A DNA stretch of 64,000 nt from Candidatus Saccharimonadota bacterium (GTDB lineage: Bacteria; Patescibacteriota; Saccharimonadia; Saccharimonadales; AWTP1-31), in assembly GCA_052034955.1 (NCBI GenBank), contig JBPOHZ010000006.1:23009-87008 (forward strand). Reading direction: 5' to 3'. The position numbers and the translations under genes were made by a program. Of the stretch, positions 49,547 through 62,628 are shown piece by piece. Numbering within the stretch: the stretch's first letter is position 1; each line of letters opens with the position of its first letter. The notes below the pieces were generated by a model. That model was not told the origin of the DNA and ran no database searches. It saw only the letters and a program-made list of their open reading frames with translations.

Positions 49547-49822
49547 AAATATGTTGCAGTTATGTGGACAAGCGGTGGACGGCTTGGTTAAGAAAAGTAG
49601 TATAAGTAATGGTTTATACAAGTCGGGTAATTTTTGCACAAATTTTGTACGCAGCATGTGGGTAAGTTTTGGTAGTTATAAGCAACTTATACTACCTACT
49701 TCCGCACAGCTTTTTATTGATTTCCCATCTGTTAATTTAAAGTTGTACCCATTATCCACATGGCTTACTAATAAAGTTACTTTTTCGACCTATAAATAAA
49801 TCACTAATAATAAGGAATCAAT
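49547..49822. other. oriC, dnaA-dnaN part (DnaA boxes)
   Basis: Perfect TTATCCACA 49752-49760. TGTGGACAA 49563-49571 (rc TTGTCCACA). TGTGGGTAA 49657-49665 (rc TTACCCACA). AT-rich flanks. Confidence 0.6.
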
Positions 49823-50914
49823 ATGAAGCTTCAAGTAACACAAGAAAACCTAGCCAAAGCACTAAACAATGTAGCTCGAGTAGCCAATACTCGCGGAACA
49901 TTACCAATACTTGCCAACGTAGTTTTAAAAACAGTAGGAACCCGGCTAACTATTGCCGCAACCAACTTAGATATCGCCATCACTCATTACATTGGATCAA
50001 AAGTAACCGAAGAAGGAAGTATCACTGTCCCCGCCCGACTGATGCAGGATTTTGTCAGCAGTTTGCCAAGTGGTGTTATCGAACTAAGTCTAGACGATTA
50101 CAAGCTTCACATTACAACCGACCAGTACAACTCGGTTATTAATGGTATCGCCGCCGACGAGTTCCCTGTTATGCCCGGTATTACCGAAGGAAAAACATGG
50201 TATATCCCAACTAACGTTCTAAAGAAAGGTCTTCAACAAGTACTAGTGGCTGCTAGTAGTGACGAAGCTCGCCCAGTACTTACTGGAGTATTTTTACACA
50301 CAAGTGGTGGAAAACTATATATGGCCGCAACAGATAGCTACCGCCTGGCCGAAAAAGAACTAATGAAAACTGGCGAAGAAGTATCACTCCTTATACCGGC
50401 CTCTGCCCTGCAGGATCTGTTAAGACTGCTAGGTGATAAAGACGAGGATGTAGAGGTTACTCATGACGACCAACAAGTTTTGTTTAAAGTTGGTGAGGTA
50501 GAACTTGTAACTCGACTTATCGAGGGTAATTACCCGGACTACCGTAAGCTGATCCCAACTAGCTTTAAGTCAGAAGCTAAATTAAAACGATCTGATTTTG
50601 TTAATATTACCAAGGTTTCTAGCTTGTTTGCCCGCGAAAGTGCTGGTAGCGTAACTGTAAATCTTAATCCAACCGATAAACAGGTTAGTATCCGTTCGGT
50701 TGCCTCGCAGCTAGGCGAAAACACGGCTAGTGCCACCGCCGAAATAACTAGTGAGGGCGACATAACCCTTAACTCAAGATATCTTCTTGATGCCCTAGGA
50801 ACATTTAGCGGCGACGAAATTAAAATTTGTTTCAATGGCAAGCTAGAGCCTTGCATCCTAGTTGATGCCAAAGCAACAGATTACACTCATGTAATCATGC
50901 CCTTAAAAAGCTAA
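49823..50914 (+). CDS. dnaN: DNA polymerase III beta sliding clamp
   Basis: SD AAGGA. MKLQVTQENLAKALNNVARVA, ATDSYRLA, RLIEGNYPDY, LNSRYLLD. 363 aa. Confidence 0.95.
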   Translation: MKLQVTQENLAKALNNVARVANTRGTLPILANVVLKTVGTRLTIAATNLDIAITHYIGSKVTEEGSITVPARLMQDFVSSLPSGVIELSLDDYKLHITTDQYNSVINGIAADEFPVMPGITEGKTWYIPTNVLKKGLQQVLVAASSDEARPVLTGVFLHTSGGKLYMAATDSYRLAEKELMKTGEEVSLLIPASALQDLLRLLGDKDEDVEVTHDDQQVLFKVGEVELVTRLIEGNYPDYRKLIPTSFKSEAKLKRSDFVNITKVSSLFARESAGSVTVNLNPTDKQVSIRSVASQLGENTASATAEITSEGDITLNSRYLLDALGTFSGDEIKICFNGKLEPCILVDAKATDYTHVIMPLKS

Positions 50915-51045
50915 GTAAACTAGGACTGGGCATATCTATTCTCTTCACTGTCCTCGCACGGTTTGTGTTTACATATAACACAAACCTACTGTGGATGTGA
51001 CTCAAATAGAATTCACTTACCCTTGTAACGTACAATGTTAAACAG

Positions 51046-52131
51046 ATGATTATTAATGACTTAAAATTGAATGATTTTCGTTCCTACGAGCAGGAAGTTT
51101 TTGAATTTGGGAATGGCGTTAATATTATTGTTGGGCCAAATGCTAGCGGCAAGACAAACTTGCTAGAATCAATACTGGTTTTATGTACTGGGAGTTCTTA
51201 CCGGGCAAAAGACATTGATTTAGTTGCCTTTAATAAGCCATGGTCCAGGATCGAGAGTGAGACTAGCGAGGGCAAAAGAACAGTTACTATCGAGCGAATA
51301 GACACCGAGCCTCCAACAACCAAAAAGAAGTTTAATATTGCCGGCGCCGAGCAGCTACGACTTTCTATGCAAAAAAGCATTCCAGTAGTTGTCTTTGAAC
51401 CAGAACATTTGCGATTACTGCACGGAGGTCCAACCGGAAGGCGCGATTACTTAGATGGTTTACTAGAACAAACGATGCCTGGATATGGAAAGATAAGACG
51501 GGACTACAAAAGAACATTGGCTCAGCGTAACGCTCTCTTAAAGACATCTAACGTTTTGTCGGGTAACGACAACGGCCAGATGTTTGCTTGGAATGTGCGG
51601 CTTAGTCAGTTGGGCGGTAAAATAACTTCTGCCAGATCAGCAATAGTAGATCTTTTAAACAAAGATATACAAGGCCTGTATAGCCAGCTAGCGGTAACTG
51701 ACGCTAAAGTTCGTATTAACTATCAATCGGATGCAGCGGTCGAAAACTACAGCACAGAGGTTTTGACTCTTTTATCTAATAACTTGCAAAAAGATAGTCT
51801 TCGAGGCTTTACCACGAATGGGCCACATAGGCACGATATAGAAATAAGCCTTGGGGGTCATCCGGCTTCGCTGGCGGCTTCACGTGGCGAAACTAGGACA
51901 TTGATGCTTGCTCTTAAAATAATGGAGCTTAAACTAATCGAGAACATCCGGGATAAGAAGCCGTTATTATTGCTCGACGACGTATTTAGTGAGCTAGATG
52001 GATCACGTCGCAAGGCCTTAACTCTATTCCTAGAGTCATATCAGACATTCATAACCACCACCGACGCCGACATTGTAGTACAACATTTTATGGACAACTG
52101 TACTATTCTGCCAATCCAGAAGAATAGTTAA
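51046..52131 (+). CDS. recF: DNA replication and repair protein RecF
   Basis: LKLNDFRSYE, Walker A GPNASGKTNLLE, LLLDDVFSELD. 361 aa. Confidence 0.92.
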   Translation: MIINDLKLNDFRSYEQEVFEFGNGVNIIVGPNASGKTNLLESILVLCTGSSYRAKDIDLVAFNKPWSRIESETSEGKRTVTIERIDTEPPTTKKKFNIAGAEQLRLSMQKSIPVVVFEPEHLRLLHGGPTGRRDYLDGLLEQTMPGYGKIRRDYKRTLAQRNALLKTSNVLSGNDNGQMFAWNVRLSQLGGKITSARSAIVDLLNKDIQGLYSQLAVTDAKVRINYQSDAAVENYSTEVLTLLSNNLQKDSLRGFTTNGPHRHDIEISLGGHPASLAASRGETRTLMLALKIMELKLIENIRDKKPLLLLDDVFSELDGSRRKALTLFLESYQTFITTTDADIVVQHFMDNCTILPIQKNS

Positions 52132-52769
52132 CGATTATTTATATCGCGAAGAACATCGACCGGTATCTTAGGATAGTGGTTTTTGTAGAAGACTAATCTA
52201 GAGGGAGTGGCAGCTGTCCACTTGCCGTTTTCTTTGTGTGCCACAACCCGAAGAACATCATACTTAGTTGAGTCACCAGGAACTAATTTGGCAGCATACC
52301 AGTCGCCCTGAAGGTAAAGTTTTTCGTCGGAAAGTATGTATCCATCTCCTGAGGAAGTTATTGCCTGCAGAGATTCGGCAATTGCGACTCTATCTTTTTG
52401 TAAGAGTTGATCTAGTCTAGCCTTGGTGAACTTAAGAGGCGGAGTTGTTATCTCGGTATCTTTTTGAATATTTACACTACTGTTTTGTGATTCGTATCCA
52501 TCCCCACTAAAGATTATTGTGTATACTCCGGGATTGAGGCGGATAGTAGACTGGGCGGTAGTCTTAGAGATTGTTTCTTCTAGCTTCATGCCGCCTTCCT
52601 CATCTTGCTGACCAATCTCTATCGTAGTGCCATTAGTTGGGGTAAGGGTGACGCTCTTCTTTACAGAAAGATTTTGGTAGACAAAGAAAAAGATGACCAT
52701 CAAGAATATTGCTACGACCAATGCTCCAATTAGGCGATTTCGCTTGGTATTTGATTGGTTAGGATACAT
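52128..52769 (-). CDS. Membrane-anchored protein, last gene of the T4SS-like operon
   Basis: 213 aa. Anchor LIGALVVAIFLMVIFFFVY. The beta-rich ectodomain has a PEGA-like stretch (RLNPGVYTIIFSGDGYESQNSSVNI). The start overlaps the previous stop. Confidence 0.55.
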   Translation of the reverse strand: MYPNQSNTKRNRLIGALVVAIFLMVIFFFVYQNLSVKKSVTLTPTNGTTIEIGQQDEEGGMKLEETISKTTAQSTIRLNPGVYTIIFSGDGYESQNSSVNIQKDTEITTPPLKFTKARLDQLLQKDRVAIAESLQAITSSGDGYILSDEKLYLQGDWYAAKLVPGDSTKYDVLRVVAHKENGKWTAATPSRLVFYKNHYPKIPVDVLRDINNR

Positions 52770-53170
52770 TACTGAACTCCTTTTGGTGCATCTACAAATA
52801 TAACTTCGTAATCTGTCACATCGTAACTGTTATCACCAAACCATTCCAGCGCAGCTTGGCGTCCCTCGGCATCTGTAGCTCTAATGTATATGGCCACAGC
52901 ACCATCCCTGGTCGGATATTTAACTGATGCTCCGGAGTCGATTCGGTAGTTAATGTCTATGGCTGGAAGGTTAACGACTGCAGGAGCATTTTTTTCTATA
53001 TCCTCGGCTGCATTTACGGCGTTTTGACCGCCGGCAATTTCCTGCTGTTGCTCAGTGACGGTGAGGGTGTCGGACAAATCATTAGAGGTTGCTGCGGAGT
53101 ATATTAAAGTAATCGCCACAAAAACTATTCCAGCCGCAACTATTAGTCTAAATCTTGTATTTCCGTTCAT
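52769..53170 (-). CDS. Small membrane-anchored protein of the T4SS-like operon
   Basis: 133 aa. Anchor LIVAAGIVFVAITLIYSAA. No family recognised. 4 nt downstream of the hydrolase gene. Confidence 0.5.
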   Translation of the reverse strand: MNGNTRFRLIVAAGIVFVAITLIYSAATSNDLSDTLTVTEQQQEIAGGQNAVNAAEDIEKNAPAVVNLPAIDINYRIDSGASVKYPTRDGAVAIYIRATDAEGRQAALEWFGDNSYDVTDYEVIFVDAPKGVQ

Positions 53171-53174
53171 TCTC

Positions 53175-55316
53175 TTACTTTAGCCTTGCTACGGTGTATG
53201 ACCTACCGTCGTTAGTATAGTGAGTTCCGCTTTTTTGAGGTACGTGTCCGCCCAAAGAGGCGCTAACAGCATCTCCACCGCCTAGTGATTCCTGAGGCCC
53301 AACGTAGAAGTAGGTGTGGCCACTGGCGTGCTTGGGTTGGGGACCGGCTACAAAGATATCTCCTGGCTTAAGCTGTGCGGTACTGGTGACATTCGGAATA
53401 ATGTCATACTTTTCGGGATGGTCTTTAACATATTTCTCTTGGACTCCAGTAGACCCTGGAGGATAATCCGGGTCCTTACCACTAGCTCTCATGACGGTCG
53501 ACACAAACCTCCCACAGTCCGAGTACTCCCCTCCGGGGTTGCAAGCCTCTTTGGCTGCCTGGTATTCGGGTTTAGCATCATCCTTATTCTTGCCATGGCC
53601 CTTGTCTGGCCAGGCATAAAGAAGTGCCGTCTGGACTATATCACCACCGACAGCCTTAGCGGCACCATCCGGTGTAATACAGGCACCAACTGGCCCGCCG
53701 ATAGTGGAGTTACCACACTCGGACGTTGCTCCACTGGCGCCACCAGCCGTGGGGACAGCGGCCATGATACCGTCGGCTATTCCCTTGGCGTAGATATCCG
53801 AATTGAAGCCAATTCCGCCCGCTTCGTTGTAGACCCATGGAGTATTGGAAAATAGCATTACATTCGGGATGTTCCCCCACGCTGGTAAGCCACGGTCTTT
53901 ACCGAAACTGCCCTCGAGCGCAACAACTCTTTGAGGATCACCGGCTGCGGTTCGGGCGGCAGCAATCTTTCCAGCATATTCCTGACTCTTGGTGGCCACC
54001 TCTTGGTTGGTAAAGGTCTTTCTTTTGGCGTCACTGATGTTCTCGCGGAATTGACCAACAGTCTGGGGGGTAACTCCGTAATTAGCAGAGGCTTGTCCAA
54101 ATGTTCCAGCACCGTCGTAGTGCATACTGACAGCAATTGCCGGCTTGGCAGCGTCGGCCCGCAAAACTCTTGTTAGGTGGCCAATACTCTCGTCTACAGT
54201 GTTCTTGGTAAGAACAACGTTATATCCCTTGCCCTCTAAAGTGGTTTTAATCTTTTGGGTGGCGTCCCACATATCCTGCATCTCGTTTGCGGCTCCACCG
54301 CTCTCTTGGGTAATAACGCCACTGCCCGGATCTACTTGAACTAAGTTACCAACACTATGACCAGGGTCTAGGACCACTGTTACCTTACCGGTTGAGGCGG
54401 CATCGTCTGTTGATAGGGCCGTGCACTTGCAGCTACCAGTAACGGCACCGCTAGTTGAACCATCGGATTTAAAGGCGGCTATCTCGGCTTGCTTACTAAT
54501 CCCCTCGGCAATATAAGCTTTGTTGTTGGTATAGGTTATCTTTTGGCCGGTAGCCATTTGGTAATAGACGTAAGTTAGCCCTACTACATAATCGTCGATG
54601 ATTCCGTCTTTTCGGCTTCCCCATGCTACTCCGGTTCCCTTACTCCAGATACGGCCGGACTCTTTATGTTTTGCTACTCCTGGAGTTCGGTAGGTTTTAA
54701 CACCAGCATTATAATTTTTACCAAGCGTAGCTATCGAGTCTATATTATTGCCCTTGCTAAAGTCCTGCTCGATAGATCCTAGTACTCTGCTGCCAATCTT
54801 TCCACCGTAACTGGCAACAATCCCAGCAGCTTTGGCGGTTGATTTGTCATAGTCATAGACATCGCTAGAGTAGTTTCCTTCCCCCCAAGTTGTCTTGATT
54901 ATCTGCCACGGCCCACGACCAATAGTGTCTGACTCACCGTTAACGACGTCGGCTCTACCGGAAGCATTCCACGGTAAGAATCCACGATGCTCCCAATAAG
55001 TTAATGAGGCCATAGCCAGTGGGTCTACACCCTGTTCTTGTGCCTTGGCGGCAATCAATGCTGCCCACTCGGGGGCCATTCCAGCCTTAGTCATCTTATC
55101 TATATCGCTACCGGCAGCTATAGGGGTTGAGCCAGCAGAAGAAACACTGGTGCACTCGGCTGTATCGACGTCAAAGTACTTAATGCCCTGTAGGTAGTAT
55201 TGTTTTTGCTTGGCACTAATGGCCGCAAATACAGTCTGGTTAGACCCGGCAACGAATACCAGCAATAAAAATGCCGCCAAAAAATGTTTAGTGTATTTTA
55301 GTCTAAAGTTTTTCAT
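53175..55316 (-). CDS. Secreted three-module peptidoglycan hydrolase (SLT/lysozyme-like + Amidase_3-like + NlpC/P60- or CHAP-like)
   Basis: The track start is 55331; ATG 55316 gives an ATGA overlap with the upstream stop. TYWEHRGF...GRGPWQI; VVLDPGHS...IAVSMHYDG; DCGRFVSTVM...HASGHTYFYVG. Confidence 0.75.
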   Translation of the reverse strand: MKNFRLKYTKHFLAAFLLLVFVAGSNQTVFAAISAKQKQYYLQGIKYFDVDTAECTSVSSAGSTPIAAGSDIDKMTKAGMAPEWAALIAAKAQEQGVDPLAMASLTYWEHRGFLPWNASGRADVVNGESDTIGRGPWQIIKTTWGEGNYSSDVYDYDKSTAKAAGIVASYGGKIGSRVLGSIEQDFSKGNNIDSIATLGKNYNAGVKTYRTPGVAKHKESGRIWSKGTGVAWGSRKDGIIDDYVVGLTYVYYQMATGQKITYTNNKAYIAEGISKQAEIAAFKSDGSTSGAVTGSCKCTALSTDDAASTGKVTVVLDPGHSVGNLVQVDPGSGVITQESGGAANEMQDMWDATQKIKTTLEGKGYNVVLTKNTVDESIGHLTRVLRADAAKPAIAVSMHYDGAGTFGQASANYGVTPQTVGQFRENISDAKRKTFTNQEVATKSQEYAGKIAAARTAAGDPQRVVALEGSFGKDRGLPAWGNIPNVMLFSNTPWVYNEAGGIGFNSDIYAKGIADGIMAAVPTAGGASGATSECGNSTIGGPVGACITPDGAAKAVGGDIVQTALLYAWPDKGHGKNKDDAKPEYQAAKEACNPGGEYSDCGRFVSTVMRASGKDPDYPPGSTGVQEKYVKDHPEKYDIIPNVTSTAQLKPGDIFVAGPQPKHASGHTYFYVGPQESLGGGDAVSASLGGHVPQKSGTHYTNDGRSYTVARLK

Positions 55317-58300
55317 TCGCCCGTCCCACATCTACTATCGGTTGGTCCTGAATCCCAGTGCCATGCCTCTAGTGAATATTGTTTTATTCCAAATTTAGGT
55401 GCGTTATCGTCCATCCATTTCCAACCTTTATTATTCGGTAATCTTGCTCTGCTAGCACAGGTTGAACCACCAGTACCGGACATATTTGCCATATCTACAG
55501 CATAACCTGTCTGGTGCATGGACTTTCCTGGAGCCGCACATAGCTTGCCGTTACCGGTTCCACCACAAGAGTCAGCTAGACGGAACGAACTACCTGCCGA
55601 TAGACTGACACCATCTGCCTTGGCCTTTCTAGCCAATGCAACCCAAGCACCGGATACAGTAGAGTTGACCACGATTCCACCGCTAATCTTCTTACCAGTG
55701 GTGTCTTGCCCGCCTCCGGGCAGATCAGGTATCTGACAGAGCTTAATCTCTAGAGCTCCTTCTTCTTTCTTGAGAGCCCCAGTGTAACGGGATTTTACAT
55801 TTCCAAGGTCATTGCTTCCTTGGGCACAGGCAGTATCTTTGGAATTGTATCCTAACTTAGCGGGGTCTACGACGTCGGCAGGAACTGACTCGGCAGCCTG
55901 CGGTGCGCTTACTGTAGCGGTGGCGCCAGAGGTAGACATGGCAAGATTATCGCAGGACTTATCGTCGACCCCTTCGATACAGGCAGCCGATTCCAGAAGT
56001 TGAGTATCGAAGATTAACATCCTAACTTTCAGCCAGTTCTTGTCGGTAGTTGCACCCCGCACCTCACCAGTTACCGGCTTGGTAGAGGCATATTTTTGGT
56101 TGGCGACGTTCAGACTTGCAGTACCAGAATTGGCGCCACATTCCTCGTTATCTATAATCTTTGCATACATAACGGTAGAGGCTTTACTACTCACATTACC
56201 ATCTTTATCGATGGAGATATTAAAACACTCCTTTGCCCTGTCGATATAGTCTTGGCCCCTGCTCGAGCTAAGAATTGTCCGTACTTCCTCGGCATTCTTG
56301 TAGGGGTTGTCCAGACTAGGGTCGTTAACTTGTGAGTAAGAATAGCCAATCTCTGGGAATCCGTAATCGTACGAATCCTTTGCTTCGTCGGCGAACAGGC
56401 TTGTCGACATTATTCCCGAGAAAGTGCTCCCCACCATGGTAAATGGCCTGGTTAGGGATGTAGATAATGTCTGAACCATGCCCAGGCTCGAACCGGGGGT
56501 TGCCATGGCAACCTGCCCAACTAGTGAGCTTGAGTCGGTCGTATCAAAAAGCCTCTGGGCTAAGGACTTCTTGCTGAACTCCTCGTGCTGAATTGCTAGC
56601 TTCTCTTGCCTGTTTTCCATAGCAACCTCAGGCGAAAGTTCGGCACCCCCAGCGGCGGCCATGGACTCGTTGGCTGCGAATCTAGCTCCATAGTTTGAGG
56701 CACCGGCAAAGGCAGATGCCCGCAGCAGACCTAAGTTAACTTGATCACCTGCAATCCAGTTCGATAGCCCCTGAATTGCAGGACCGGCAAATAGTTCACT
56801 TGCTACCAGTCCTACGACGGCACTGACCGGGCCGGTACCAATATCTATCGCCATGGTTGCAATTGTTCCAAAAGGACTACCAAGCACGCCACAAGCACCA
56901 CTTAATCCAGGAACGCCATTTAGGAACTTTGATACAGGATTCCTGGATGGGTCGTACTGAATAGAGTCAGGAATATCGCGGCCGGTTAGTTTGGCAAAAC
57001 CCCTCTCGAATTGGAGGCTTTTATCGTTGGCCCAGTTCTTAGTGGCGTCGGCAGTTTCGTTGGCTAGCTGTTTAGAGTGGTACTTTAGCTGATTTAAGTT
57101 AACGTCTTCGCCAGCTTGTATCTGGTATCGCAGGGATATCATCTCCATGCCTAGACGCATTAAGGGCAGAACTAAGTTATTCTGCCTGATGTTATCTATG
57201 TCATTAGATATGGCTTGAGCGAGGCATACAACGCCGGCAACAGCAGTAACTGCGCCAGCCTTTCTAAGAGCGGCATTATTTCCAATGCCAGAAAGTTTGC
57301 TTTCTACACCCGTGCTCGCATCTGGAGCGTCGGGGTTTATGTTACCAACGTCATCAGCCGTCGATGCAGCTGAGTCAAGGTCTGGATCGGTGGCGTCTGT
57401 GGTATTGCCGTCTGCATCGGTGGTTGTTTCTTTTTTGGATGCAAAAGTAGCCTTTCCTTTCTTGACCCCATCCTTAAATTTTTTTCCGATTTTCTTTTGC
57501 CACTCTCCAAATCTTAATTTTTCATCAACTTTACGCAGGATGGCTTCGTCGGCTTTTTTTATGGGGTGTAGCATGCCGGGTGATCCACCACGTTTTGTCA
57601 GTAGTCTTGCTCTGCCCGGTCCTGACAGACGGTGATAACCGGTGGCCTTTAATACACTTCTATAAACCTTATTTATTTCTCTTGGGCTTAGATCCTCGAC
57701 ACTAGTGCTGAATTTTATTAAGTCGCCCTCAACTACTCCATCCATTCCGTAGTTTGTCTTGAAGTGCTCAAGTATTTGATCTGGGCTTTTACCTTTTAAC
57801 TCGGCTAATCGGTTGGTAGGATCTACTTTGTCGACATCAAAGACAATTGCTTTATTTTGAGCTAGTCGGTCACTAAGCTCGATATCAAAGCCAGACTGTT
57901 TCATCCGGGCATCAACCGGTTTAGTCATTAGGTTTTGTAAGCTGCTTAGTCGAAGCTTCTCTGGACTTTTAATTGCATAACGGACGTTGCGCATTAGCTT
58001 GTACATTCTGATGGCACTCATGTCTTCTTGGGTCCAGAAGTGTCCTTTTTCTAGAGTGTCACCTAAGAAAATAAACTTTGCTGGTCCAGCACTCATACCT
58101 ATCACTCCAAAAACAGTCGATGCTACAGCCAATGTAAGAGTACTGGCAACAAACTTTTTACGCTTGTTATCTACTAGAGCGACAAGCCCCCTTGGACCTC
58201 TTTTGCCGGTATTCTTATTCTCTTTATAAAAACTATCAGCGTCGTTCCAGTTCTCCCCATTTCGGCGACGATCTTCGGCTTCGCGAAGCGCCTCGGATAA

Positions 58301-58675
58301 AGACTTCATGTCACGGTCCTTGATTCCAAGCTTGTTGGCTCGAACATTGTTGCCTAGTCCCGTTTCTTCCTCTAGCTTACGAAGCTCTTCTATGGCATTG
58401 TCGGTAAACTCTTCTCTACCCGATTTTCTACCGGAACTATTGGCAACATCTAATAATTCTTGGTCCGATAAGCTGCTTGATTGATAGTCACTTCTACCAC
58501 TGTTTGCAATGTCCATAAGCTCATTATCAGATACTTGACTTGACTCATATCGGGGATCATCGACATACAGGCCGTCATCACTATAGGCGGCTTCCATCTC
58601 CTTTTGCTGAAGAAGTCTGGCTCTTTCCTCGTCATCGTAGATTTGGTTTGGATTGTCTTGTAGGTCGACGCTCAT
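55313..58675 (-). CDS. 1120-aa polytopic VirB6-like protein with a C-terminal M15 (VanY/LAS) peptidase domain
   Basis: Acidic N-terminus. TM near aa 175-205. Gly/Ala-rich hydrophobic cluster at aa ~470-700. C-terminal PGKSMHQTGYAVDM and LEAWHWD zinc-site motifs. Confidence 0.7.
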   Translation of the reverse strand: MSVDLQDNPNQIYDDEERARLLQQKEMEAAYSDDGLYVDDPRYESSQVSDNELMDIANSGRSDYQSSSLSDQELLDVANSSGRKSGREEFTDNAIEELRKLEEETGLGNNVRANKLGIKDRDMKSLSEALREAEDRRRNGENWNDADSFYKENKNTGKRGPRGLVALVDNKRKKFVASTLTLAVASTVFGVIGMSAGPAKFIFLGDTLEKGHFWTQEDMSAIRMYKLMRNVRYAIKSPEKLRLSSLQNLMTKPVDARMKQSGFDIELSDRLAQNKAIVFDVDKVDPTNRLAELKGKSPDQILEHFKTNYGMDGVVEGDLIKFSTSVEDLSPREINKVYRSVLKATGYHRLSGPGRARLLTKRGGSPGMLHPIKKADEAILRKVDEKLRFGEWQKKIGKKFKDGVKKGKATFASKKETTTDADGNTTDATDPDLDSAASTADDVGNINPDAPDASTGVESKLSGIGNNAALRKAGAVTAVAGVVCLAQAISNDIDNIRQNNLVLPLMRLGMEMISLRYQIQAGEDVNLNQLKYHSKQLANETADATKNWANDKSLQFERGFAKLTGRDIPDSIQYDPSRNPVSKFLNGVPGLSGACGVLGSPFGTIATMAIDIGTGPVSAVVGLVASELFAGPAIQGLSNWIAGDQVNLGLLRASAFAGASNYGARFAANESMAAAGGAELSPEVAMENRQEKLAIQHEEFSKKSLAQRLFDTTDSSSLVGQVAMATPGSSLGMVQTLSTSLTRPFTMVGSTFSGIMSTSLFADEAKDSYDYGFPEIGYSYSQVNDPSLDNPYKNAEEVRTILSSSRGQDYIDRAKECFNISIDKDGNVSSKASTVMYAKIIDNEECGANSGTASLNVANQKYASTKPVTGEVRGATTDKNWLKVRMLIFDTQLLESAACIEGVDDKSCDNLAMSTSGATATVSAPQAAESVPADVVDPAKLGYNSKDTACAQGSNDLGNVKSRYTGALKKEEGALEIKLCQIPDLPGGGQDTTGKKISGGIVVNSTVSGAWVALARKAKADGVSLSAGSSFRLADSCGGTGNGKLCAAPGKSMHQTGYAVDMANMSGTGGSTCASRARLPNNKGWKWMDDNAPKFGIKQYSLEAWHWDSGPTDSRCGTGE

Positions 58676-58681
58676 CTACAG

Positions 58682-60598
58682 CTACACTCCTGGAGTCAGT
58701 CGGTTAGCAAGGTCTATTGTTCCCTGGGGTTGATCCAGATCACCTTGCTGGTTTATCTGCTGAACTTGATCGGGGTTGGTAGTAATCAGGTTCATCTCGG
58801 TTGGGCTAGATGTAATCTGGATATGGACGTGGCTTTGGCCAGCAAAGAATAGTCCTTGCCCAACTGGGAACTGGCTTAGGCGCTTGCGTTCTTCGCTGGT
58901 TAGTCTAAAGACTTCGGCTAGGGTATCAACTGCCGAGCTAGACTGCTTAAGCAATAATTGCATACTGGCGTTAGCTACAATGGCTCGACCCATACGACTG
59001 CCCATAAAGTCTTCGACGTCCTGGCTGATGGTTGTAATACCAAGGTTGTATTTACGAGCACGTTTAGCCAAACTGAACATAAAGTTAGCCGAATCTTCGT
59101 ACTTCATAAGCTGCCAAGCTTCGTCGATGATCAGCATTCGTCGACGTTGGTCGCTTTTAGTCTTGTTCCAAATGTAGTTCAGGACGATATACATAGCTAC
59201 CGGACGAAGCTCGTCTTCGAGGTCACGAATATTAAAGACTACCATTGGATTGTTGATGTCAGTGTTAGACTGCTGGCTAAAGATGCCGGCAAAAGTACCC
59301 GTGGTGTACTTACGTAATCTTTGAGCTAATTGCGGCCCAGTACCACCCATATGGAGTAATGTGTCATACAAATCAACGATGGTTGGCGGAATGCTGTTGT
59401 GAGTTAGAGGGTCATTAGTGATGCCAGCCTTGGCATATGTTTCGATAAGCGCAGCGTCAAGATCAGACTCTTCTACCGGACTAAGCACCGGCATAGCAGC
59501 CGCCCCTCCGGCCATCATCTGAGCCTGTGCACCACCCATCATCAGGCGTAGCAGGCCGTGTAAGGTTATAATGTTGCTCCGAAGTGCGTTATCGGATTCT
59601 TCACTGTCCACAACTTTTGGCAAGTCGAATGGGTTAATTCTGGTAGCAGAACTTAAGCTTAGTCGGACATAGGCGCCGCCCACTGCCTCACACATTCTTT
59701 GGTATTCGTTCTCGGGGTCGATGATGAATATTTCGGTACCAAACATTAAACTTCTAAGAGCCTCTAGTTTTACGGCAAATGACTTACCGGCACCGGATTT
59801 GGCGAAGACTACCGAGTTGCCGTTTTCTAGGCTAAAACGGTCGAATAATACCAGGCCAGAATTGTGCATGTTTATGCCGTACAAGATACCATTATCCTGA
59901 CTAAGGTCAGCGCTGGTGAATGGGAAGCTGGTACTGATAGCGCCAGTATTCATGTTGCGCCGAATCTGAAGCTGGTCCATAAACTGCGGCACAGTACTGT
60001 TAAAGGCCTGTTCTTGCTGGCTGGTAGCCACCTTAGAATAAACAAGTTGTTGACCAAGTACGGATTCGATCTTATGAGTTACAAACTCTAATTCGTCCAT
60101 GCTGCCGGCATAGATAGTGAAGTATAAGCCAAAGCGGAAGAAGCGTTCTTCCCCGACCTGTAGCTTGTCACGCATTTCCTCGGCGTCCATAATTGCAGCT
60201 TGCTTACCGGGGTCACGGGTATGACCTTTTTCGGCATCGATCTGGATACCGGCTTCTAGTTGAGTTACTTTTTTACGTAAGTTTTCCAGAACCACTTGGC
60301 TTTCTACTGGGTAAACGTAGATGGATAGGTCCATGACCTCGTCCATATTAACCATGCTACTCAACCAACCGGTAAAGATTTGTCTAGGGTAGCCGTACAC
60401 ATAGAATGTTCGGGCCATTCGAGTTCCGATATGGAAGAAGGCGTTCTCGTAGGCCAATGAGCTTGGGGCAATAAAGTCTCGTAAAGCGGTGACACCTTTT
60501 TGGAAGGCGGCTTGGACTTCTTGCTCCTCTAGTGCTCTTTGTGCTTGGGCGGCAGCTACCGGGTCGACAGATTGTTGTTTCTTGTTTCCAAAGGCCAT
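58682..60598 (-). CDS. virB4: VirB4/TrsE/PrgJ-type type IV secretion ATPase
   Basis: Walker A FAKSGAGKSF, Walker B MLIIDEAWQL. N-terminal IAPSSLAYENAFFHIGTRMARTFYVYGYP is typical of Gram-positive VirB4 homologues. 638 aa. Confidence 0.88.
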   Translation of the reverse strand: MAFGNKKQQSVDPVAAAQAQRALEEQEVQAAFQKGVTALRDFIAPSSLAYENAFFHIGTRMARTFYVYGYPRQIFTGWLSSMVNMDEVMDLSIYVYPVESQVVLENLRKKVTQLEAGIQIDAEKGHTRDPGKQAAIMDAEEMRDKLQVGEERFFRFGLYFTIYAGSMDELEFVTHKIESVLGQQLVYSKVATSQQEQAFNSTVPQFMDQLQIRRNMNTGAISTSFPFTSADLSQDNGILYGINMHNSGLVLFDRFSLENGNSVVFAKSGAGKSFAVKLEALRSLMFGTEIFIIDPENEYQRMCEAVGGAYVRLSLSSATRINPFDLPKVVDSEESDNALRSNIITLHGLLRLMMGGAQAQMMAGGAAAMPVLSPVEESDLDAALIETYAKAGITNDPLTHNSIPPTIVDLYDTLLHMGGTGPQLAQRLRKYTTGTFAGIFSQQSNTDINNPMVVFNIRDLEDELRPVAMYIVLNYIWNKTKSDQRRRMLIIDEAWQLMKYEDSANFMFSLAKRARKYNLGITTISQDVEDFMGSRMGRAIVANASMQLLLKQSSSAVDTLAEVFRLTSEERKRLSQFPVGQGLFFAGQSHVHIQITSSPTEMNLITTNPDQVQQINQQGDLDQPQGTIDLANRLTPGV

Positions 60599-61557
60599 TA
60601 CTGCATCTCCCTGTCTAGGTCTGGTTGCCTAGCTTCGCCGACACCTTTGGTTACGACTGGAGCGCTCAAGTCCTTGAAGTTCTTAAGTTGCTGCCTGGTG
60701 GCCGTATCGGGGTTGTAGGTATCGTAGTAAAGTTCGATTAACTCCTGTGTATCTAATGGCAATCCCTGCACACCACATTGCATAAGACCGCCCAAAACGG
60801 CTTGGACGCGGTTACGTAGCTCGTCCTTTGCCTTGCCAAGGTCGATTTCGTTAATGATTACTTGCTGAGTTGGCTTGTTGCCAAACATATTGGTAATTCC
60901 GGCGATCAGTCCTTTGCTGGCATCGAGGGTCTTTTGCAGGTCGGCAGCTGGGAAATACGGTATAACAACATAGAACTTCTTGTCCATAATGTTGGTTTGT
61001 TGGCTAAGTTGACTCATAAACTCGATGTAGTCTTCCATAAGTAATGCCAGAAGCATGTTGTCGTGCTCGGTGCGTATTTTATCGAGCTTTTCGATGTAGG
61101 GCCCTAGGTCTACTTTGGAACTTCGAACGGTGATCTGGATTGGGAAGTATAATGAGTTTAGGAAGCCCTGGTAGCTGTATTCTACAGCTTCCCTTTCCTG
61201 GGGGCTCATGAGGTCAAAGTTGACGGCCTTGACCATTACTACCGACCTAAAACTGCCATCGTTCATAATGACGATTCCGTCCCTGACTTCAGCAATCTGA
61301 AGTGAGTTCTGAGTGCTATTGGGGTTGGATTTTGGTACTACGGCCGGCGCCTGAACTCCTCCGGCAGGAGCATTAGGATTATAAATGTTAGGCGGTGGAG
61401 CCGTTGGAGCGATGGCTCCCGGCATAGCGTACTCTTGACCACCAATACCGGATGAGGCTGGGTTGGCAGAAGCTGGCGGTGCGCCAGCGGCAACAGGCGG
61501 CTGGTACGCACCAACAGGATTTGGATTACCGGCTGGTGATTGACTAAATGGATCCAT
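60598..61557 (-). CDS. T4SS-associated protein: Pro-rich N-terminus plus a VirB4-N-domain-like module without ATPase motifs
   Basis: 319 aa. The first ~85 aa are Pro/Ala/Gly-rich. Then IAEVRDGIVIMNDGSFRSVVMVKAVNFDLMSPQEREAVEYSYQGFLNSLYFPIQITVRS. The stop overlaps the virB4 start. Confidence 0.55.
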   Translation of the reverse strand: MDPFSQSPAGNPNPVGAYQPPVAAGAPPASANPASSGIGGQEYAMPGAIAPTAPPPNIYNPNAPAGGVQAPAVVPKSNPNSTQNSLQIAEVRDGIVIMNDGSFRSVVMVKAVNFDLMSPQEREAVEYSYQGFLNSLYFPIQITVRSSKVDLGPYIEKLDKIRTEHDNMLLALLMEDYIEFMSQLSQQTNIMDKKFYVVIPYFPAADLQKTLDASKGLIAGITNMFGNKPTQQVIINEIDLGKAKDELRNRVQAVLGGLMQCGVQGLPLDTQELIELYYDTYNPDTATRQQLKNFKDLSAPVVTKGVGEARQPDLDREMQ

Positions 61558-61599: not shown

Positions 61600-62628
61600 C
61601 TAATGAAGCGAAACAACAACTTCGTCATTTCCGGCTTCGCGAGCCAAACTATCGACGTTACGATCGTTGTTTCTAGCAAGTTCAATTGTACCAGGCATAG
61701 CGGTGGGTGTCACTGGTGGAGTAGCTGGTTTTTGGGCATTGGGATCATAAGGATTTATGGTTCGATGATTTCGGAGGGTATGAGAGCTGGCGGCTCGCTT
61801 TGAGTTTATATTGTCGAGCAAACCAGCATCGTCAGGATCTATAGTACTTCCAGCTGCGCTAAACAGGGGCGACAGTCCGGTATCGTCAGAGATGGAAGGC
61901 GCTTGAGTGGTGGTAAAACTGGACTGTCCTGGAGCTGCTGGCGCACCCATAAACCATAGATTATCTGCTGGTGCCTGTAAGCCCGTCTTTAAGCCTGCTT
62001 CTCGGGTGTCGTCAATCTTTTCCATGACCCTGCCCTTTAGTTGAGTACTACTATTGGAGATGGCTGAATCGATTTGCTGTGCTCGTGCCGTGTCAAATAT
62101 ATCAACTTCACCATCGGTGTCATTATTATGCACTGAAGGCAATGTAGATGCATCGACTAGTCGATCTGTAGCAACTCCAGCCGTTGCTTCTTGCAATGAG
62201 GAACCCTTAATTACCCAGCCACGACTGTCGATAGTATTGGCCAAGGCCTCTAATCTACTCTTTACCTCAATTTGCGATAAATTATCTCCAGTAAATTGCT
62301 CAACTGGAGGCGGCGCAGTAATTTTGACCAGTTCTTGCATGCCACTTTGATCCCAAATTCGCTTTCGAGGCTTAAACATAAATCGAATTTTAGCCAAAAG
62401 CCATGTTTCGGTAGGTTGATCCCTTCCCCATGGGAACGCCAAAAAGCCAGTCACAATAATGACTGGAACGAGAGGCATAGAGAGTAGCCAAATACCTCTA
62501 GTGATAAAAACTACAGATAAGTAAGCGCTAACAACAGCTATGGCACCAAAAATACACTGCTTAAGTGTCAGTGGTCCAAAAAACTTATCCTCTGCTTCAA
62601 TATCTTGAAGCACCTTATAGGTCGCCAT
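61600..62628 (-). CDS. PrgI/VirB3-like two-helix membrane protein with a long C-terminal extension
   Basis: MATYKVLQDIEAEDKFFGPLTLKQCIFGAIAVVSAYLSVVFI plus a second helix LLSMPLVPVIIVTGFLAF match the PrgI-family N-terminal pattern. Total length 342 aa. Confidence 0.65.
   Translation of the reverse strand: MATYKVLQDIEAEDKFFGPLTLKQCIFGAIAVVSAYLSVVFITRGIWLLSMPLVPVIIVTGFLAFPWGRDQPTETWLLAKIRFMFKPRKRIWDQSGMQELVKITAPPPVEQFTGDNLSQIEVKSRLEALANTIDSRGWVIKGSSLQEATAGVATDRLVDASTLPSVHNNDTDGEVDIFDTARAQQIDSAISNSSTQLKGRVMEKIDDTREAGLKTGLQAPADNLWFMGAPAAPGQSSFTTTQAPSISDDTGLSPLFSAAGSTIDPDDAGLLDNINSKRAASSHTLRNHRTINPYDPNAQKPATPPVTPTAMPGTIELARNNDRNVDSLAREAGNDEVVVSLH

What the first reader, a model, noticed from the sequence alone, without database searches (positions are those of the whole stretch)
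53175..55331. Three different peptidoglycan-cleaving modules in one secreted T4SS-linked protein
After the anchor FLAAFLLLVFVAGS there are three modules. (i) An SLT/lysozyme-like region, aa ~85-260, nt ~54552-55079 (TYWEHRGF, GRGPWQI). (ii) An Amidase_3-like region, aa ~317-527, nt ~53751-54383 (VVLDPGHS, EGKGYNVVLTKN, IAVSMHYDG). (iii) A papain-like NlpC/P60 or CHAP region, aa ~560-718, nt ~53178-53654 (DCGRFVSTVM, HASGHTYFYVG). Gram-positive T4SS hydrolases such as PrgK, CwlT and TcpG carry one or two modules. Glycan-strand, amide-bond and peptide-stem cleavage combined in one T4SS protein would allow complete local dissolution of a thick wall, whether its own or that of a host cell.
Basis: partly seen in the sequence, partly recalled or inferred. 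Interest (0 to 1): 0.6.

Follow-up and report, generated by a model that had tools for sequence, protein, structure and literature searches.

The report
Three-enzyme wall cutter of Saccharibacteria T4SS
This gene in a Saccharibacteria (TM7) genome encodes an exported protein that joins three different cell-wall-cutting enzymes and sits inside a type IV secretion gene cluster; it is real, but it is a module-swapped variant of a kind of protein already known from Gram-positive conjugation systems and from a cultivated relative.

Summary
ORF 53175-55331 (-) is a real 718-aa gene; its start is probably M6. All quoted motifs are present.

All three modules were verified:
- **SLT/GH23 lysozyme-like module (aa ~73-286).** No direct Pfam or PDB hit. 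It is supported by an exhaustive profile search, a confident AlphaFold model, Foldseek hits and an invariant catalytic Glu114.
- **Amidase_3 module (aa ~317-527).** Pfam scores above threshold. Zn ligands H325/E350/H404 and catalytic E503 are invariant.
- **NlpC/P60-CHAP papain-fold module (aa ~560-718).** Profile scores are sub-threshold, but sequence, profile and fold hits agree. C606 and H672 are invariant; no conserved third triad residue was found.

The gene lies in a tight operon: PrgI, split VirB4, a 1120-aa membrane protein ending in a VanY peptidase, this hydrolase, then two small anchored proteins. The operon abuts recF-dnaN-dnaA. This order is conserved in 8 related loci and in Southlakia epibionticum ML1.

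The novelty claim is overstated. PrgK of pCF10 already has three predicted hydrolase domains. The ML1 counterpart at the same position (SEML1_0006) is annotated with two lysozyme-like domains plus a cysteine proteinase and is essential in Tn-seq.

What is new is the Amidase_3 module added to an SLT-like + NlpC/P60 core, and the module shuffling at this slot. Verdict: new variant of a known kind, moderate interest.

The parts
53175..55331 (-). Three-module peptidoglycan hydrolase gene. It is 718 aa from the first ATG; the likely true start is M6 at 55316, giving 713 aa. The stop codon is 53175-53177.
   Evidence: ORF list. An identical 713-aa protein is called in public data. The ATGA overlap with the upstream stop is visible in the sequence.
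55224..55316 (-). Probable Sec signal peptide, aa 6-36 (MKNFRLKYTKH-FLAAFLLLVFVAG-SNQTVFA|A).
   Evidence: It is the only hydrophobic segment in the protein. Homologues carry AXA-like motifs after theirs. Cleavage itself is inferred.
54474..55115 (-). Module 1: SLT/GH23 lysozyme-like glycan-strand-cleaving domain, aa ~73-286. Catalytic Glu114 is at codon 54990-54992. Motifs: G140-P-W-Q143 and Y207-N-A-G210.
   Evidence: AF2 model pLDDT 86.3. Foldseek top hits are MltE, LtgA/Slt70-type enzymes and g-type lysozymes. Of 87 distant relatives found by exhaustive HMMER, 57 hit Pfam SLT_2 and 48 hit SLT. The enlarged profile hits T7 gp16 transglycosylase at 2e-9, SltB3, Slt35 and MltE. E, GP-Q and N are invariant.
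53751..54383 (-). Module 2: Amidase_3 zinc N-acetylmuramoyl-L-alanine amidase, aa ~317-527. Zn ligands are H325, E350 and H404; catalytic residue is E503. An insert of ~35-40 aa lies between H404 and E503.
   Evidence: Pfam PF01520, 39.5 bits against a cut-off of 27. PDB profile hits to CwlV at 3e-8, Rv3717, AmiA and AmiC. hhalign to E. coli AmiA gives probability 97%. The four residues are invariant in 12 sequences.
53178..53654 (-). Module 3: papain-fold NlpC/P60-CHAP-like cysteine peptidase/amidase, aa ~560-718. Catalytic C606 is at codon 53514-53516 and H672 at codon 53316-53318.
   Evidence: Pfam CHAP E=0.006 for this sequence; 8/11 relatives hit NLPC_P60 and 5/11 hit CHAP. The PDB profile hits only NlpC/P60 proteins, with Spr/MepS at 6e-4 and Cys and His aligned. 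Foldseek finds MepS, Tse1, CHAP domains and phage CHAP/NlpC lysins. Relatives carry precomputed PF00877.
55313..58675 (-). Upstream, translationally coupled 1120-aa membrane protein with a TM segment at aa 175-193. Its C-terminal VanY/LAS-type peptidase domain covers aa 1003-1107 (nt 55355-55669).
   Evidence: Pfam VanY, 36.1 bits against a cut-off of 25. TM scan. The ML1 counterpart SEML1_0007 is annotated Hedgehog/DD-peptidase.
58682..60598 (-). VirB4-type T4SS ATPase (C-terminal, P-loop part).
   Evidence: NCBIfam conju_CD1110 at 1.7e-105; Pfam P-loop_TraG.
60598..61557 (-). Separate ORF encoding the N-terminal (TraC-like) part of VirB4.
   Evidence: Weak NCBIfam hits to the N-terminal regions of VirB4/TrsD models. 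Relatives have PF26593 TraC-like at this position.
61600..62628 (-). PrgI-family (VirB3-like) T4SS membrane protein.
   Evidence: Pfam PrgI at 2.4e-12.
52128..53170 (-). Two small N-terminally anchored proteins (133 aa and 213 aa) that close the operon. They are conserved in position.
   Evidence: ORFs and TM scan. tblastn synteny. The ML1 counterparts SEML1_0004/0005 are beta-sandwich/PEGA proteins scored essential.

Best explanation
This is the cell-wall-remodelling subunit (the functional VirB1/PrgK equivalent) of the chromosomal, origin-proximal, Gram-positive-type T4SS of a Saccharibacterium.

Proposed mechanism:
- It is made together with the preceding 1120-aa membrane protein; the two genes share an ATGA stop-start overlap.
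- It is exported by Sec and its signal peptide is probably removed.
- At the T4SS site it cuts peptidoglycan at three kinds of bond. The GH23/SLT-like module cuts the glycan strand. The Amidase_3 module strips stem peptides from MurNAc. The NlpC/P60-CHAP module cuts within the stem peptide or cross-link.
- The VanY-type peptidase on the partner protein adds a fourth activity.
- The result is a local gap through which the channel and pilus assemble. The first wall cut is the bacterium's own; the host wall at the contact site may also be cut.

Shown here: the gene, the three folds, intact catalytic residues, the export signal and the conserved T4SS synteny.
Inferred: enzymatic activity, bond specificity, signal-peptide cleavage, association with the 1120-aa protein, and which wall is cut.
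For: - **Context.** Operon order with overlaps or short gaps: PrgI, VirB4-N, VirB4, 1120-aa VanY protein, hydrolase, two small anchored proteins.
- **Synteny.** The same order occurs in 8 other loci and in S. epibionticum ML1. There the gene in this slot, SEML1_0006, and its neighbours are essential for epibiotic growth (PMC12102498).
- **Precedent.** pCF10 has the order PrgI, VirB4, PrgK (hydrolase), PrgL.
- **Module 1.**
- **Module 2.**
- **Module 3.**
- **Catalytic residues.** E114, H325/E350/H404/E503 and C606/H672 are invariant across 12 orthologues of 36-51% identity.
- **Architecture.** Two-module SLT-like + NlpC/P60-like orthologues without the amidase exist in the same slot. That is the classical architecture of Gram-positive T4SS hydrolases such as TraG of pIP501 (PMC11323569).
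- **Targeting.** No LysM, SH3 or other wall-binding domain was found. This fits targeting through the secretion machine rather than through the wall.
Against: - No activity data exist for this protein.
- The N and C modules do not reach Pfam gathering scores.
- They show no detectable sequence relationship to PrgK itself, so this is analogy of role and position, not orthology.
- In PrgK only the SLT/MUR domain is active and the other two restrain it. Three intact-looking modules may therefore not mean three activities.
- The NlpC/P60 third triad position is not conserved.
- The amidase has an unexplained insert where cell-division amidases carry an autoinhibitory helix.
- Linkage to the T4SS is by gene order only.
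Confidence: 0.6

Rival explanations
1. Host-wall breaching or feeding enzyme. The protein's main substrate is the thick peptidoglycan of the Actinobacterial host at the attachment site. Cutting it would let the T4SS pilus or channel reach the host membrane, or would release muropeptides, amino sugars and amino acids that the auxotrophic epibiont needs. The varied module set would track host wall chemistry.
For: - The extracytoplasmic genes of the locus evolve far faster than the cytoplasmic ones. VirB4 is 75-91% identical and dnaA 63-74%, while the hydrolase is 35-50% and the 1120-aa protein is undetectable apart from its VanY part.
- The slot shows module gain, loss, permutation and swapping. 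Variants include GDSL/SGNH esterase-like and phage-tail-lysozyme modules.
- The fold of module 3 resembles the interbacterial amidase effectors Tse1/Tae4.
- The orthologous slot is essential for epibiotic growth.
- Saccharibacteria lack amino-acid biosynthesis (PMC10633639).
Against: - Fast evolution is common to all surface proteins.
- The protein has a Sec signal and no recognisable T4SS-substrate signal, so it is released on the producer's own surface first.
- No immunity-type partner is evident. The two downstream proteins look like beta-sandwich structural proteins in ML1.
- Nothing here discriminates host from self peptidoglycan.
Confidence: 0.25
2. Only partly catalytic, self-regulating enzyme as in PrgK. 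One module, most likely the SLT-like one, does the cutting. The other modules mainly bind peptidoglycan, hold the enzyme in check or mediate dimerisation and docking.
For: - PrgK precedent: LytM is degenerate, CHAP is inactive in vitro, and both down-regulate the muramidase domain (PMC11323569).
- The third residue of the NlpC/P60 triad is not conserved.
- The amidase has a ~35-40-aa insert between H404 and E503 where Pfam and PDB alignments break.
- Cysteines sit in both linkers (C301/C303, C539/C551).
Against: Unlike PrgK's LytM, every catalytic or metal-binding residue that can be mapped is invariant across orthologues of only 36-51% identity. This argues for selection on catalysis in all three modules. 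Cys-His dyads without a third residue are functional in Tse1-type amidases (own knowledge).
Confidence: 0.3
3. Housekeeping autolysin for growth, budding or daughter-cell separation that merely lies next to the T4SS genes.
For: Amidase_3 enzymes are typically cell-separation amidases (AmiA/B/C, CwlV hits). The locus is next to dnaA-dnaN-recF and close to yidC, among core genes. Essentiality in ML1 would also fit a division role.
Against: - The gene is translationally coupled inside the T4SS operon, and this position is kept in all 8 loci examined and in ML1.
- Orthologues in the slot can lack the amidase entirely.
- The glycosidase + cysteine peptidase core is the hallmark of T4SS hydrolases.
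- Only 5 of 185,579 species-representative genomes carry this N-module pattern. That is too narrow for a core division enzyme.
Confidence: 0.08
4. Remnant of a prophage lysis or tail-lysin gene.
For: The best PDB sequence hit of the enlarged N-module profile is the phage T7 gp16 transglycosylase. The C module resembles many phage CHAP/NlpC lysins. Relatives in the slot carry Phage_lysozyme2 domains.
Against: There are no phage structural, holin or integrase genes around it. The position in a T4SS operon at the chromosomal origin is conserved across species. A Sec signal peptide is present. Phage-like lysozyme domains are also known in bona fide T4SS hydrolases such as PrgK.
Confidence: 0.03

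Closest known systems
SEML1_0006 of Southlakia epibionticum ML1 (Wang et al. 2023, PMC10633639)
   Same: Same slot in the same origin-proximal Saccharibacterial T4SS operon: PrgI, split VirB4, ~1100-aa DD-peptidase protein, hydrolase, two small proteins, recF/dnaN/dnaA. It is an exported protein with three modules, two lysozyme-like domains plus a C-terminal cysteine proteinase fold. It is scored essential in Tn-seq.
   Different: ML1 has Glucosaminidase (PF01832) + Phage_lysozyme2 (PF18013) + cysteine proteinase, with no Amidase_3. The window protein has SLT/GH23-like + Amidase_3 + NlpC/P60-like.
PrgK of Enterococcus faecalis pCF10
   Same: T4SS-encoded peptidoglycan hydrolase with three extracellular modules, including a lysozyme-like glycosidase and a C-terminal papain-fold CHAP domain. 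It is encoded just downstream of PrgI and VirB4 and is required for T4SS function.
   Different: - PrgK is anchored by an internal TM helix after a cytoplasmic domain.
- Its third module is a degenerate LytM, not an amidase.
- Only its SLT/MUR domain is active.
- There is no detectable sequence similarity to the window's N or C modules by hhalign.
TraG of pIP501, CwlT of ICEBs1, TcpG of pCW3 (two-module Gram-positive T4SS hydrolases)
   Same: A glycan-cleaving domain followed by a CHAP or NlpC/P60 cysteine peptidase. This N-C core is the architecture of the amidase-less orthologues found here (P0014, P0026, P0029, P0030, P0032). TraG's SLT + CHAP composition is from PMC11323569. CwlT and TcpG are from my own knowledge.
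   Different: They have two modules and no amidase. They are carried on mobile elements that also encode a relaxase and coupling protein. Direct sequence comparison was not done for these three.
Cell-separation and sporulation Amidase_3 enzymes (AmiA/AmiC, CwlV, Rv3717)
   Same: Module 2 shares their fold signature, Zn ligands and catalytic Glu.
   Different: Those are stand-alone enzymes, or are fused to targeting or wall-binding domains, and are not part of secretion systems. The insert between the third ligand and the catalytic Glu is unrelated in sequence.

Membership tests
SLT / GH23 lysozyme-like superfamily (Pfam PF01464 SLT, PF13406 SLT_2) | The sequence reaches the curated Pfam score | tested here: not met
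   No SLT hit for the window sequence even at E<=10. Four of 11 orthologues hit SLT weakly, best E=0.013.
SLT / GH23 lysozyme-like superfamily (Pfam PF01464 SLT, PF13406 SLT_2) | Homology demonstrable through intermediate sequences or profiles | tested here: met
   The N-module profile finds 113 proteins at E<=1e-3 among 1.84 billion representatives. Of 87 distant ones, 57 hit SLT_2 (best 6e-15) and 48 hit SLT. The combined profile hits T7 gp16 at 2e-9, SltB3 at 2e-7, Slt35, MltE and g-type lysozymes.
SLT / GH23 lysozyme-like superfamily (Pfam PF01464 SLT, PF13406 SLT_2) | Lysozyme-like alpha-helical fold | tested here: met
   AF2 model pLDDT 86, pTM 0.83. Foldseek PDB hits 1-18 are all lytic transglycosylases or goose-type lysozymes, probability 0.5-0.99. 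E-values are only 0.07-0.5 and TM 0.32-0.39.
SLT / GH23 lysozyme-like superfamily (Pfam PF01464 SLT, PF13406 SLT_2) | Catalytic Glu plus G-x-x-Q and Y-N-x-G motifs in order | tested here: met
   E114, G140-P-W-Q143 and Y207-N-A-G210 are present. E, GP-Q and N are invariant in 25 sequences. In the profile alignment, these columns line up with the E, GMMQ and YNQG of T7 gp16.
SLT / GH23 lysozyme-like superfamily (Pfam PF01464 SLT, PF13406 SLT_2) | Lytic transglycosylase chemistry (1,6-anhydroMurNAc product) as opposed to hydrolysis | not testable with these tools
   PrgK's 'SLT' domain proved to be a muramidase, so the chemistry cannot be read from the fold.
Amidase_3 (PF01520) zinc N-acetylmuramoyl-L-alanine amidases | The sequence reaches the curated Pfam score | tested here: met
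   39.5 bits against a cut-off of 27, aa 319-451. PDB profile hits to CwlV, Rv3717, AmiA and AmiC at 3e-8 to 1e-5.
Amidase_3 (PF01520) zinc N-acetylmuramoyl-L-alanine amidases | His-Glu-His zinc ligands and catalytic Glu | tested here: met
   H325, E350 and H404 align with the DPGH, E and SIH of E. coli AmiA (hhalign probability 97%). E503 aligns with the LLE Glu of CwlV in a weak second segment. All four are invariant.
NlpC/P60 - CHAP papain-like peptidoglycan peptidases/amidases (PF00877, PF05257) | The sequence reaches the curated Pfam score | tested here: not met
   CHAP scores 17.5 bits against a cut-off of 26 (E=0.006). Eight of 11 orthologues hit NLPC_P60 (best 6.7e-4) and 5/11 hit CHAP (best 2.5e-5), all sub-threshold or near it. 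Some relatives carry a precomputed PF00877 hit.
NlpC/P60 - CHAP papain-like peptidoglycan peptidases/amidases (PF00877, PF05257) | Papain-like fold | tested here: met
   AF2 model pLDDT 74.7, pTM 0.78. Foldseek PDB hits are MepS, Tse1/Tae1, Tae4 and CHAP domains, probability up to 0.99. In BFVD the best hit is an unnamed 629-aa protein (E=7e-7, TM 0.69), and nearly all named hits below it are CHAP or NlpC/P60 lysins.
NlpC/P60 - CHAP papain-like peptidoglycan peptidases/amidases (PF00877, PF05257) | Catalytic Cys (D-C-x-G-F motif) and His (G-H-x-x-x-Y-x-G) | tested here: met
   C606 and H672 are invariant in 28 sequences. They align with the DCSGFV Cys and the RHVGIYIG His of Spr/MepS.
NlpC/P60 - CHAP papain-like peptidoglycan peptidases/amidases (PF00877, PF05257) | Third polar residue completing the triad | tested here: inconclusive
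   The third His of Spr aligns with a non-conserved column (A688 in the window). The adjacent column is N/D/E in most orthologues (D687 here). The site may be a Cys-His dyad.
T4SS-dedicated cell-wall hydrolases of Gram-positive-type systems (VirB1 analogues: PrgK, TraG, CwlT, TcpG) | Encoded inside the T4SS gene cluster next to virB4 | tested here: met
   Conserved in 8 loci and comparable to the pCF10 order.
T4SS-dedicated cell-wall hydrolases of Gram-positive-type systems (VirB1 analogues: PrgK, TraG, CwlT, TcpG) | Exported multidomain enzyme with a glycosidase plus a cysteine peptidase | tested here: met
   Signal sequence. Modules 1 and 3 as above.
T4SS-dedicated cell-wall hydrolases of Gram-positive-type systems (VirB1 analogues: PrgK, TraG, CwlT, TcpG) | Sequence homology to a founding member (PrgK) | tested here: not met
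   hhalign of the N and C profiles against PrgK gives probability <1%. Only PrgK was tested, as a single sequence.
T4SS-dedicated cell-wall hydrolases of Gram-positive-type systems (VirB1 analogues: PrgK, TraG, CwlT, TcpG) | Required for T4SS function; interacts with a T4SS subunit | not testable with these tools
   Only indirect evidence: the gene in the same slot of S. epibionticum ML1 is essential, like the rest of the T4SS genes.

The most novel reading that the evidence does not exclude
The hydrolase, together with the VanY-tipped 1120-aa partner, is a host-directed 'wall drill' of the epibiont's T4SS. It would be a rapidly diversifying cassette whose modules are swapped to match the peptidoglycan chemistry of the Actinobacterial host. 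Module choices seen in the slot are SLT-like, phage-tail lysozyme, glucosaminidase, Amidase_3, GDSL/SGNH esterase-like and NlpC/P60. The module set would then be a determinant of host range and of nutrient (muropeptide) acquisition, not just an assembly aid.
Probability: 0.2. Interest if true: 0.7.

Novelty: new variant of a known kind. Interest (0 to 1): 0.35.

Why it matters
The T4SS of Saccharibacteria is essential for their epibiotic life, and what it does is unknown. The hydrolase slot is one of the few parts of that machine with a predictable, assayable biochemistry. This work shows that the slot holds a shuffled set of wall-cutting modules: here glycan, amide and peptide cleavage, plus a carboxypeptidase-type domain on the neighbouring protein. 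That gives concrete enzymes and point mutants to test on epibiont versus host sacculi, which could tell whether the machine breaches the host wall. For T4SS biology in general it adds an Amidase_3-containing architecture to the known glycosidase + CHAP/NlpC theme. It does not reveal a new principle.

Tried and rejected
- **Direct searches of the full protein.** The PDB sequence search gave only noise and NCBIfam gave nothing.
- **N-module profile of 11 close sequences.** It found no SLT structures in the PDB. It aligned only the YNAG motif to E. coli Slt70 by hhalign, probability 2%. The link needed one round of exhaustive profile search.
- **Word-indexed homologue search with the N profile.** It returned only 4 proteins, though two of them (M23 + SLT_2 proteins) gave the first bridge.
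- **Is the N module the same as the Phage_lysozyme2 domain of relatives such as P0010?** No relation by hhalign.
- **Are the N and C modules related to PrgK?** No.
- **Model coordinates.** They are not exposed, so active-site geometry and the identity of the third triad residue could not be checked.
- **Prophage origin and simple housekeeping autolysin.** Both were considered and rejected on context (see rivals).
- **Literature.** The PrgK founding paper (PMC3911162) is not held. The 2024 mBio paper was used instead. A literature search for an amidase-containing VirB1-type hydrolase found nothing. That is weak evidence of absence.

Full report
**1. The observation**

A 100%-identical protein of 713 aa is present in public assemblies. 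Sixteen further homologues (E from 7e-163 to 1.5e-18) come from Saccharibacteria metagenome bins, several annotated as amidase family proteins.

Gene callers start the protein at M6. There the ATG overlaps the stop of the upstream gene as ATGA, a classic translational-coupling junction.

The only strongly hydrophobic segment is aa 17-35. It follows a K/R-rich N-terminus and is followed by VFA|A. The homologues have similar small-residue motifs after their hydrophobic cores. I therefore read it as a cleavable Sec signal peptide rather than an anchor. This is an inference.

**2. The three modules**

*Amidase_3 (the easy one).*
- Pfam PF01520 scores 39.5 bits against a cut-off of 27 for aa 319-451.
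- A profile of the middle segment of 11 orthologues hits CwlV (3e-8), mycobacterial Rv3717-type amidases, AmiA and AmiC in the PDB.
- It aligns to E. coli AmiA with hhalign probability 97%.
- H325 (DPGH), E350 and H404 (SMH) match the zinc ligands. E503 (PWVYNE) matches the catalytic Glu of CwlV in a weaker second alignment segment. All four are invariant in 12 sequences that are only 36-51% identical to the window protein.
- The alignments break between H404 and E503. This protein has 99 residues there against 62 in CwlV. The insert is unexplained.

*N-terminal module.* It has no Pfam, NCBIfam or PDB sequence hit of its own. Four independent lines nevertheless place it in the SLT/GH23 lysozyme-like superfamily:
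1. An AlphaFold2 model from the 11-sequence alignment is confident (pLDDT 86, pTM 0.83). Its Foldseek hits in the PDB are almost exclusively lytic transglycosylases (MltE, LtgA/Slt70-type, MltF, Slt35) and goose-type lysozymes, with probabilities 0.5-0.99. E-values are weak (0.07-0.5) and TM-scores low (about 0.35).
2. An exhaustive HMMER search of 1.84 billion representatives found 113 proteins at E<=1e-3. Of the 87 distant ones, 57 match Pfam SLT_2 and 48 match SLT, with best E-values of 6e-15 and 1.6e-10.
3. A combined alignment of the window module, five orthologues and 19 of these distant relatives keeps E114, G140-P141, Q143, G185 and N208 invariant.
4. That combined profile hits the T7 gp16 peptidoglycan transglycosylase (2e-9), SltB3 (2e-7), Slt35, MltC, MltE and g-type lysozymes. 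In the profile alignment, the columns holding E114, the GP-Q motif and the YNAG motif line up with the E, GMMQ and YNQG of gp16.

The module is thus a divergent SLT-like domain with the catalytic Glu intact. Whether it is a lytic transglycosylase or a hydrolase cannot be told. The 'SLT' domain of PrgK turned out to be a muramidase (PMC11323569).

*C-terminal module.*
- It scores sub-threshold against Pfam CHAP (E=0.006, covering C606 to H672).
- Eight of 11 orthologues hit NLPC_P60 and five hit CHAP.
- The profile of the segment hits only NlpC/P60 proteins in the PDB. Spr/MepS scores 0.008 with the 11-sequence profile and 6e-4 with an enlarged 28-sequence profile. The DCGxF Cys and the GHT His align with the catalytic Cys and His of Spr.
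- A wider search found 68 relatives. Several carry a precomputed PF00877 hit, and one is named an NlpC family hydrolase by its source.
- The AlphaFold model (pLDDT 74.7) matches MepS, the T6SS amidase effectors Tse1/Tae4 and CHAP domains in the PDB.
- In BFVD the best hit is an unnamed 629-aa protein (E=7e-7, TM 0.69, rmsd 3.1 A), and nearly all named hits below it are CHAP or NlpC/P60 phage lysins.
- C606 and H672 are invariant in 28 sequences. The position of Spr's third triad residue is not conserved, so the site may work as a Cys-His dyad or use the neighbouring D687/N column.

**3. Context**

The gene lies in a tightly packed minus-strand operon:
- a 424-aa protein;
- PrgI (VirB3-like; Pfam 2.4e-12);
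- a 319-aa ORF corresponding to the N-terminal part of VirB4;
- the VirB4 ATPase (NCBIfam conju_CD1110, 1.7e-105);
- a 1120-aa protein with a TM helix at aa 175-193 and a C-terminal VanY peptidase domain (36.1 bits against a cut-off of 25);
- the hydrolase;
- two small N-terminally anchored proteins.

The operon converges on recF, with dnaN and dnaA beyond it.

The same order is found in every related locus I could retrieve. It also matches Southlakia epibionticum ML1, where the gene table reads dnaA, dnaN, recF, SEML1_0004 to SEML1_0010.

In ML1 the gene in the same position, SEML1_0006 (643 aa), is annotated with Glucosaminidase and Phage-tail-lysozyme Pfam hits. Its ECOD assignments are lysozyme-like (61-255), lysozyme-like (277-435) and cysteine proteinase (456-625). 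It is scored essential in Tn-seq, as are its neighbours, including the DD-peptidase-tipped SEML1_0007. [quoted passage not shown] A 2025 review lists a VirB1-like component for this system (PMC12857230).

**4. Variation in the slot**

Scanning 36 family members with HMMs of the three modules gave:
- about 20 with the N-M-C order of the window;
- six with N-C only, i.e. no amidase (P0014, P0026, P0029, P0030, P0032, P0036);
- one permuted M-N-C (P0022);
- one with a GDSL/SGNH domain ahead of N-C (P0028).

The same slot in other Saccharibacteria holds Phage_lysozyme2 + GDSL + Amidase_3 + C (P0010). It can also hold GDSL + Amidase_3 + Phage_lysozyme2 + NlpC/P60 (P0016).

The N-C core is the classical glycosidase + cysteine-peptidase layout of Gram-positive T4SS hydrolases. 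The amidase is an addition.

Across loci, VirB4 is 75-91% identical to the window's and DnaA 63-74%. The hydrolase is only 35-50% identical, and the 1120-aa protein is undetectable by tblastn except for its VanY part. Only 5 loci among 185,579 species-representative genomes carry the N-module signature.

**5. Mechanism**

The best-supported reading is that this is the wall-remodelling subunit of the Saccharibacterial T4SS. It would be co-produced with the VanY-tipped membrane protein and exported by Sec. It would cut glycan strands, MurNAc-L-Ala amide bonds and stem peptides locally, so that the channel and pilus can cross the wall. I put this at about 0.6.

The fast evolution and module shuffling also fit a host-directed role: breaching or harvesting the Actinobacterial wall (about 0.25). 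The PrgK precedent warns that some modules may be regulatory rather than catalytic (about 0.3; not exclusive of the first two). A housekeeping autolysin or a prophage remnant is unlikely given the conserved operon position.

**6. Comparison and novelty**

The protein works like PrgK, TraG, CwlT and TcpG. It is not a sequence relative of PrgK; hhalign gives probability below 1% for both modules.

The ML1 counterpart at the same position already shows three modules.

I could not find two things described: an Amidase_3 module in a T4SS hydrolase (a literature search returned nothing, which is weak evidence), and the cassette-like variability of this slot.

I classify the finding as a new variant of a known kind and score interest at 0.35.

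Noticed in passing
window 55313-58675 (-), VanY domain at 55355-55669: The 1120-aa membrane protein just upstream ends in a VanY/LAS-type D-Ala-D-Ala carboxypeptidase domain (36.1 bits against a cut-off of 25). The translationally coupled gene pair therefore carries four peptidoglycan-active modules. The rest of this protein is too divergent to be found by tblastn in related loci.
   Followed up: partly
window 58682-61557 (-): VirB4 is encoded as two ORFs overlapping by 1 nt: a 319-aa TraC-like N-terminal part and a 638-aa ATPase. The same split is seen in related loci (PF26593 TraC-like + P-loop_TraG) and in S. epibionticum (SEML1_0009/0008).
   Followed up: partly
window 48164-52131 (+) and 52128-52131: The T4SS operon converges on recF with a 4-nt 3' overlap and lies next to dnaN and dnaA. 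It is therefore at the chromosomal origin. This arrangement is conserved in all 8 related loci and in S. epibionticum ML1.
   Followed up: partly
window 53862-54101 (-), aa ~410-490 of the hydrolase: The Amidase_3 module has an insert of ~35-40 residues between the third Zn ligand (H404) and the catalytic E503, including a probable helix (TNQEVATKSQEYAGKIAAARTAAG). Pfam and PDB alignments break there. It is at the place where AmiA/B/C carry an autoinhibitory helix (own knowledge), but it shows no sequence similarity to that helix.
   Followed up: no
L004-L012 and proteins P0010, P0014-P0016, P0022, P0026-P0032: The hydrolase slot is a cassette. Orthologous positions hold N-C, N-M-C, M-N-C, GDSL+N+C, or Phage_lysozyme2+GDSL+Amidase_3+NlpC combinations. 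GDSL/SGNH modules may be peptidoglycan O-acetyl esterases; this is a guess.
   Followed up: partly
L004-L012 versus window: Divergence within the locus is very uneven. VirB4 is 75-91% identical and DnaA 63-74%. The hydrolase is 35-50%, the small anchored proteins 30-47%, and the 1120-aa protein is not detectable.
   Followed up: partly
L012 (DATLJN010000001.1): The record is titled as a Magnetospirillaceae MAG. The locus has Saccharibacteria-type dnaA (63% identity), VirB4 (75%) and the same T4SS synteny, so the contig is probably mis-binned.
   Followed up: no
BFVD entry A0A8S5VVA6: An unnamed 629-aa protein filed as viral matches the C-module model far better than anything else (TM 0.69, rmsd 3.1 A, 27% identity, E=7e-7). 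It could be a phage of Saccharibacteria or a misfiled bacterial contig.
   Followed up: no
window 49494-49799 (+): A 101-aa ORF lies between dnaA and dnaN (called as an 86-aa gene in the identical public contig L007). It has no family hit on record.
   Followed up: no
P0020, P0021, P0037 and many hits: Saccharibacteria and relatives also encode about 36 proteins that join an SLT_2-type domain to Peptidase_M23. These are the closest outgroup to the N module. Their 'DGDGDG' loop is absent from the window's module.
   Followed up: partly
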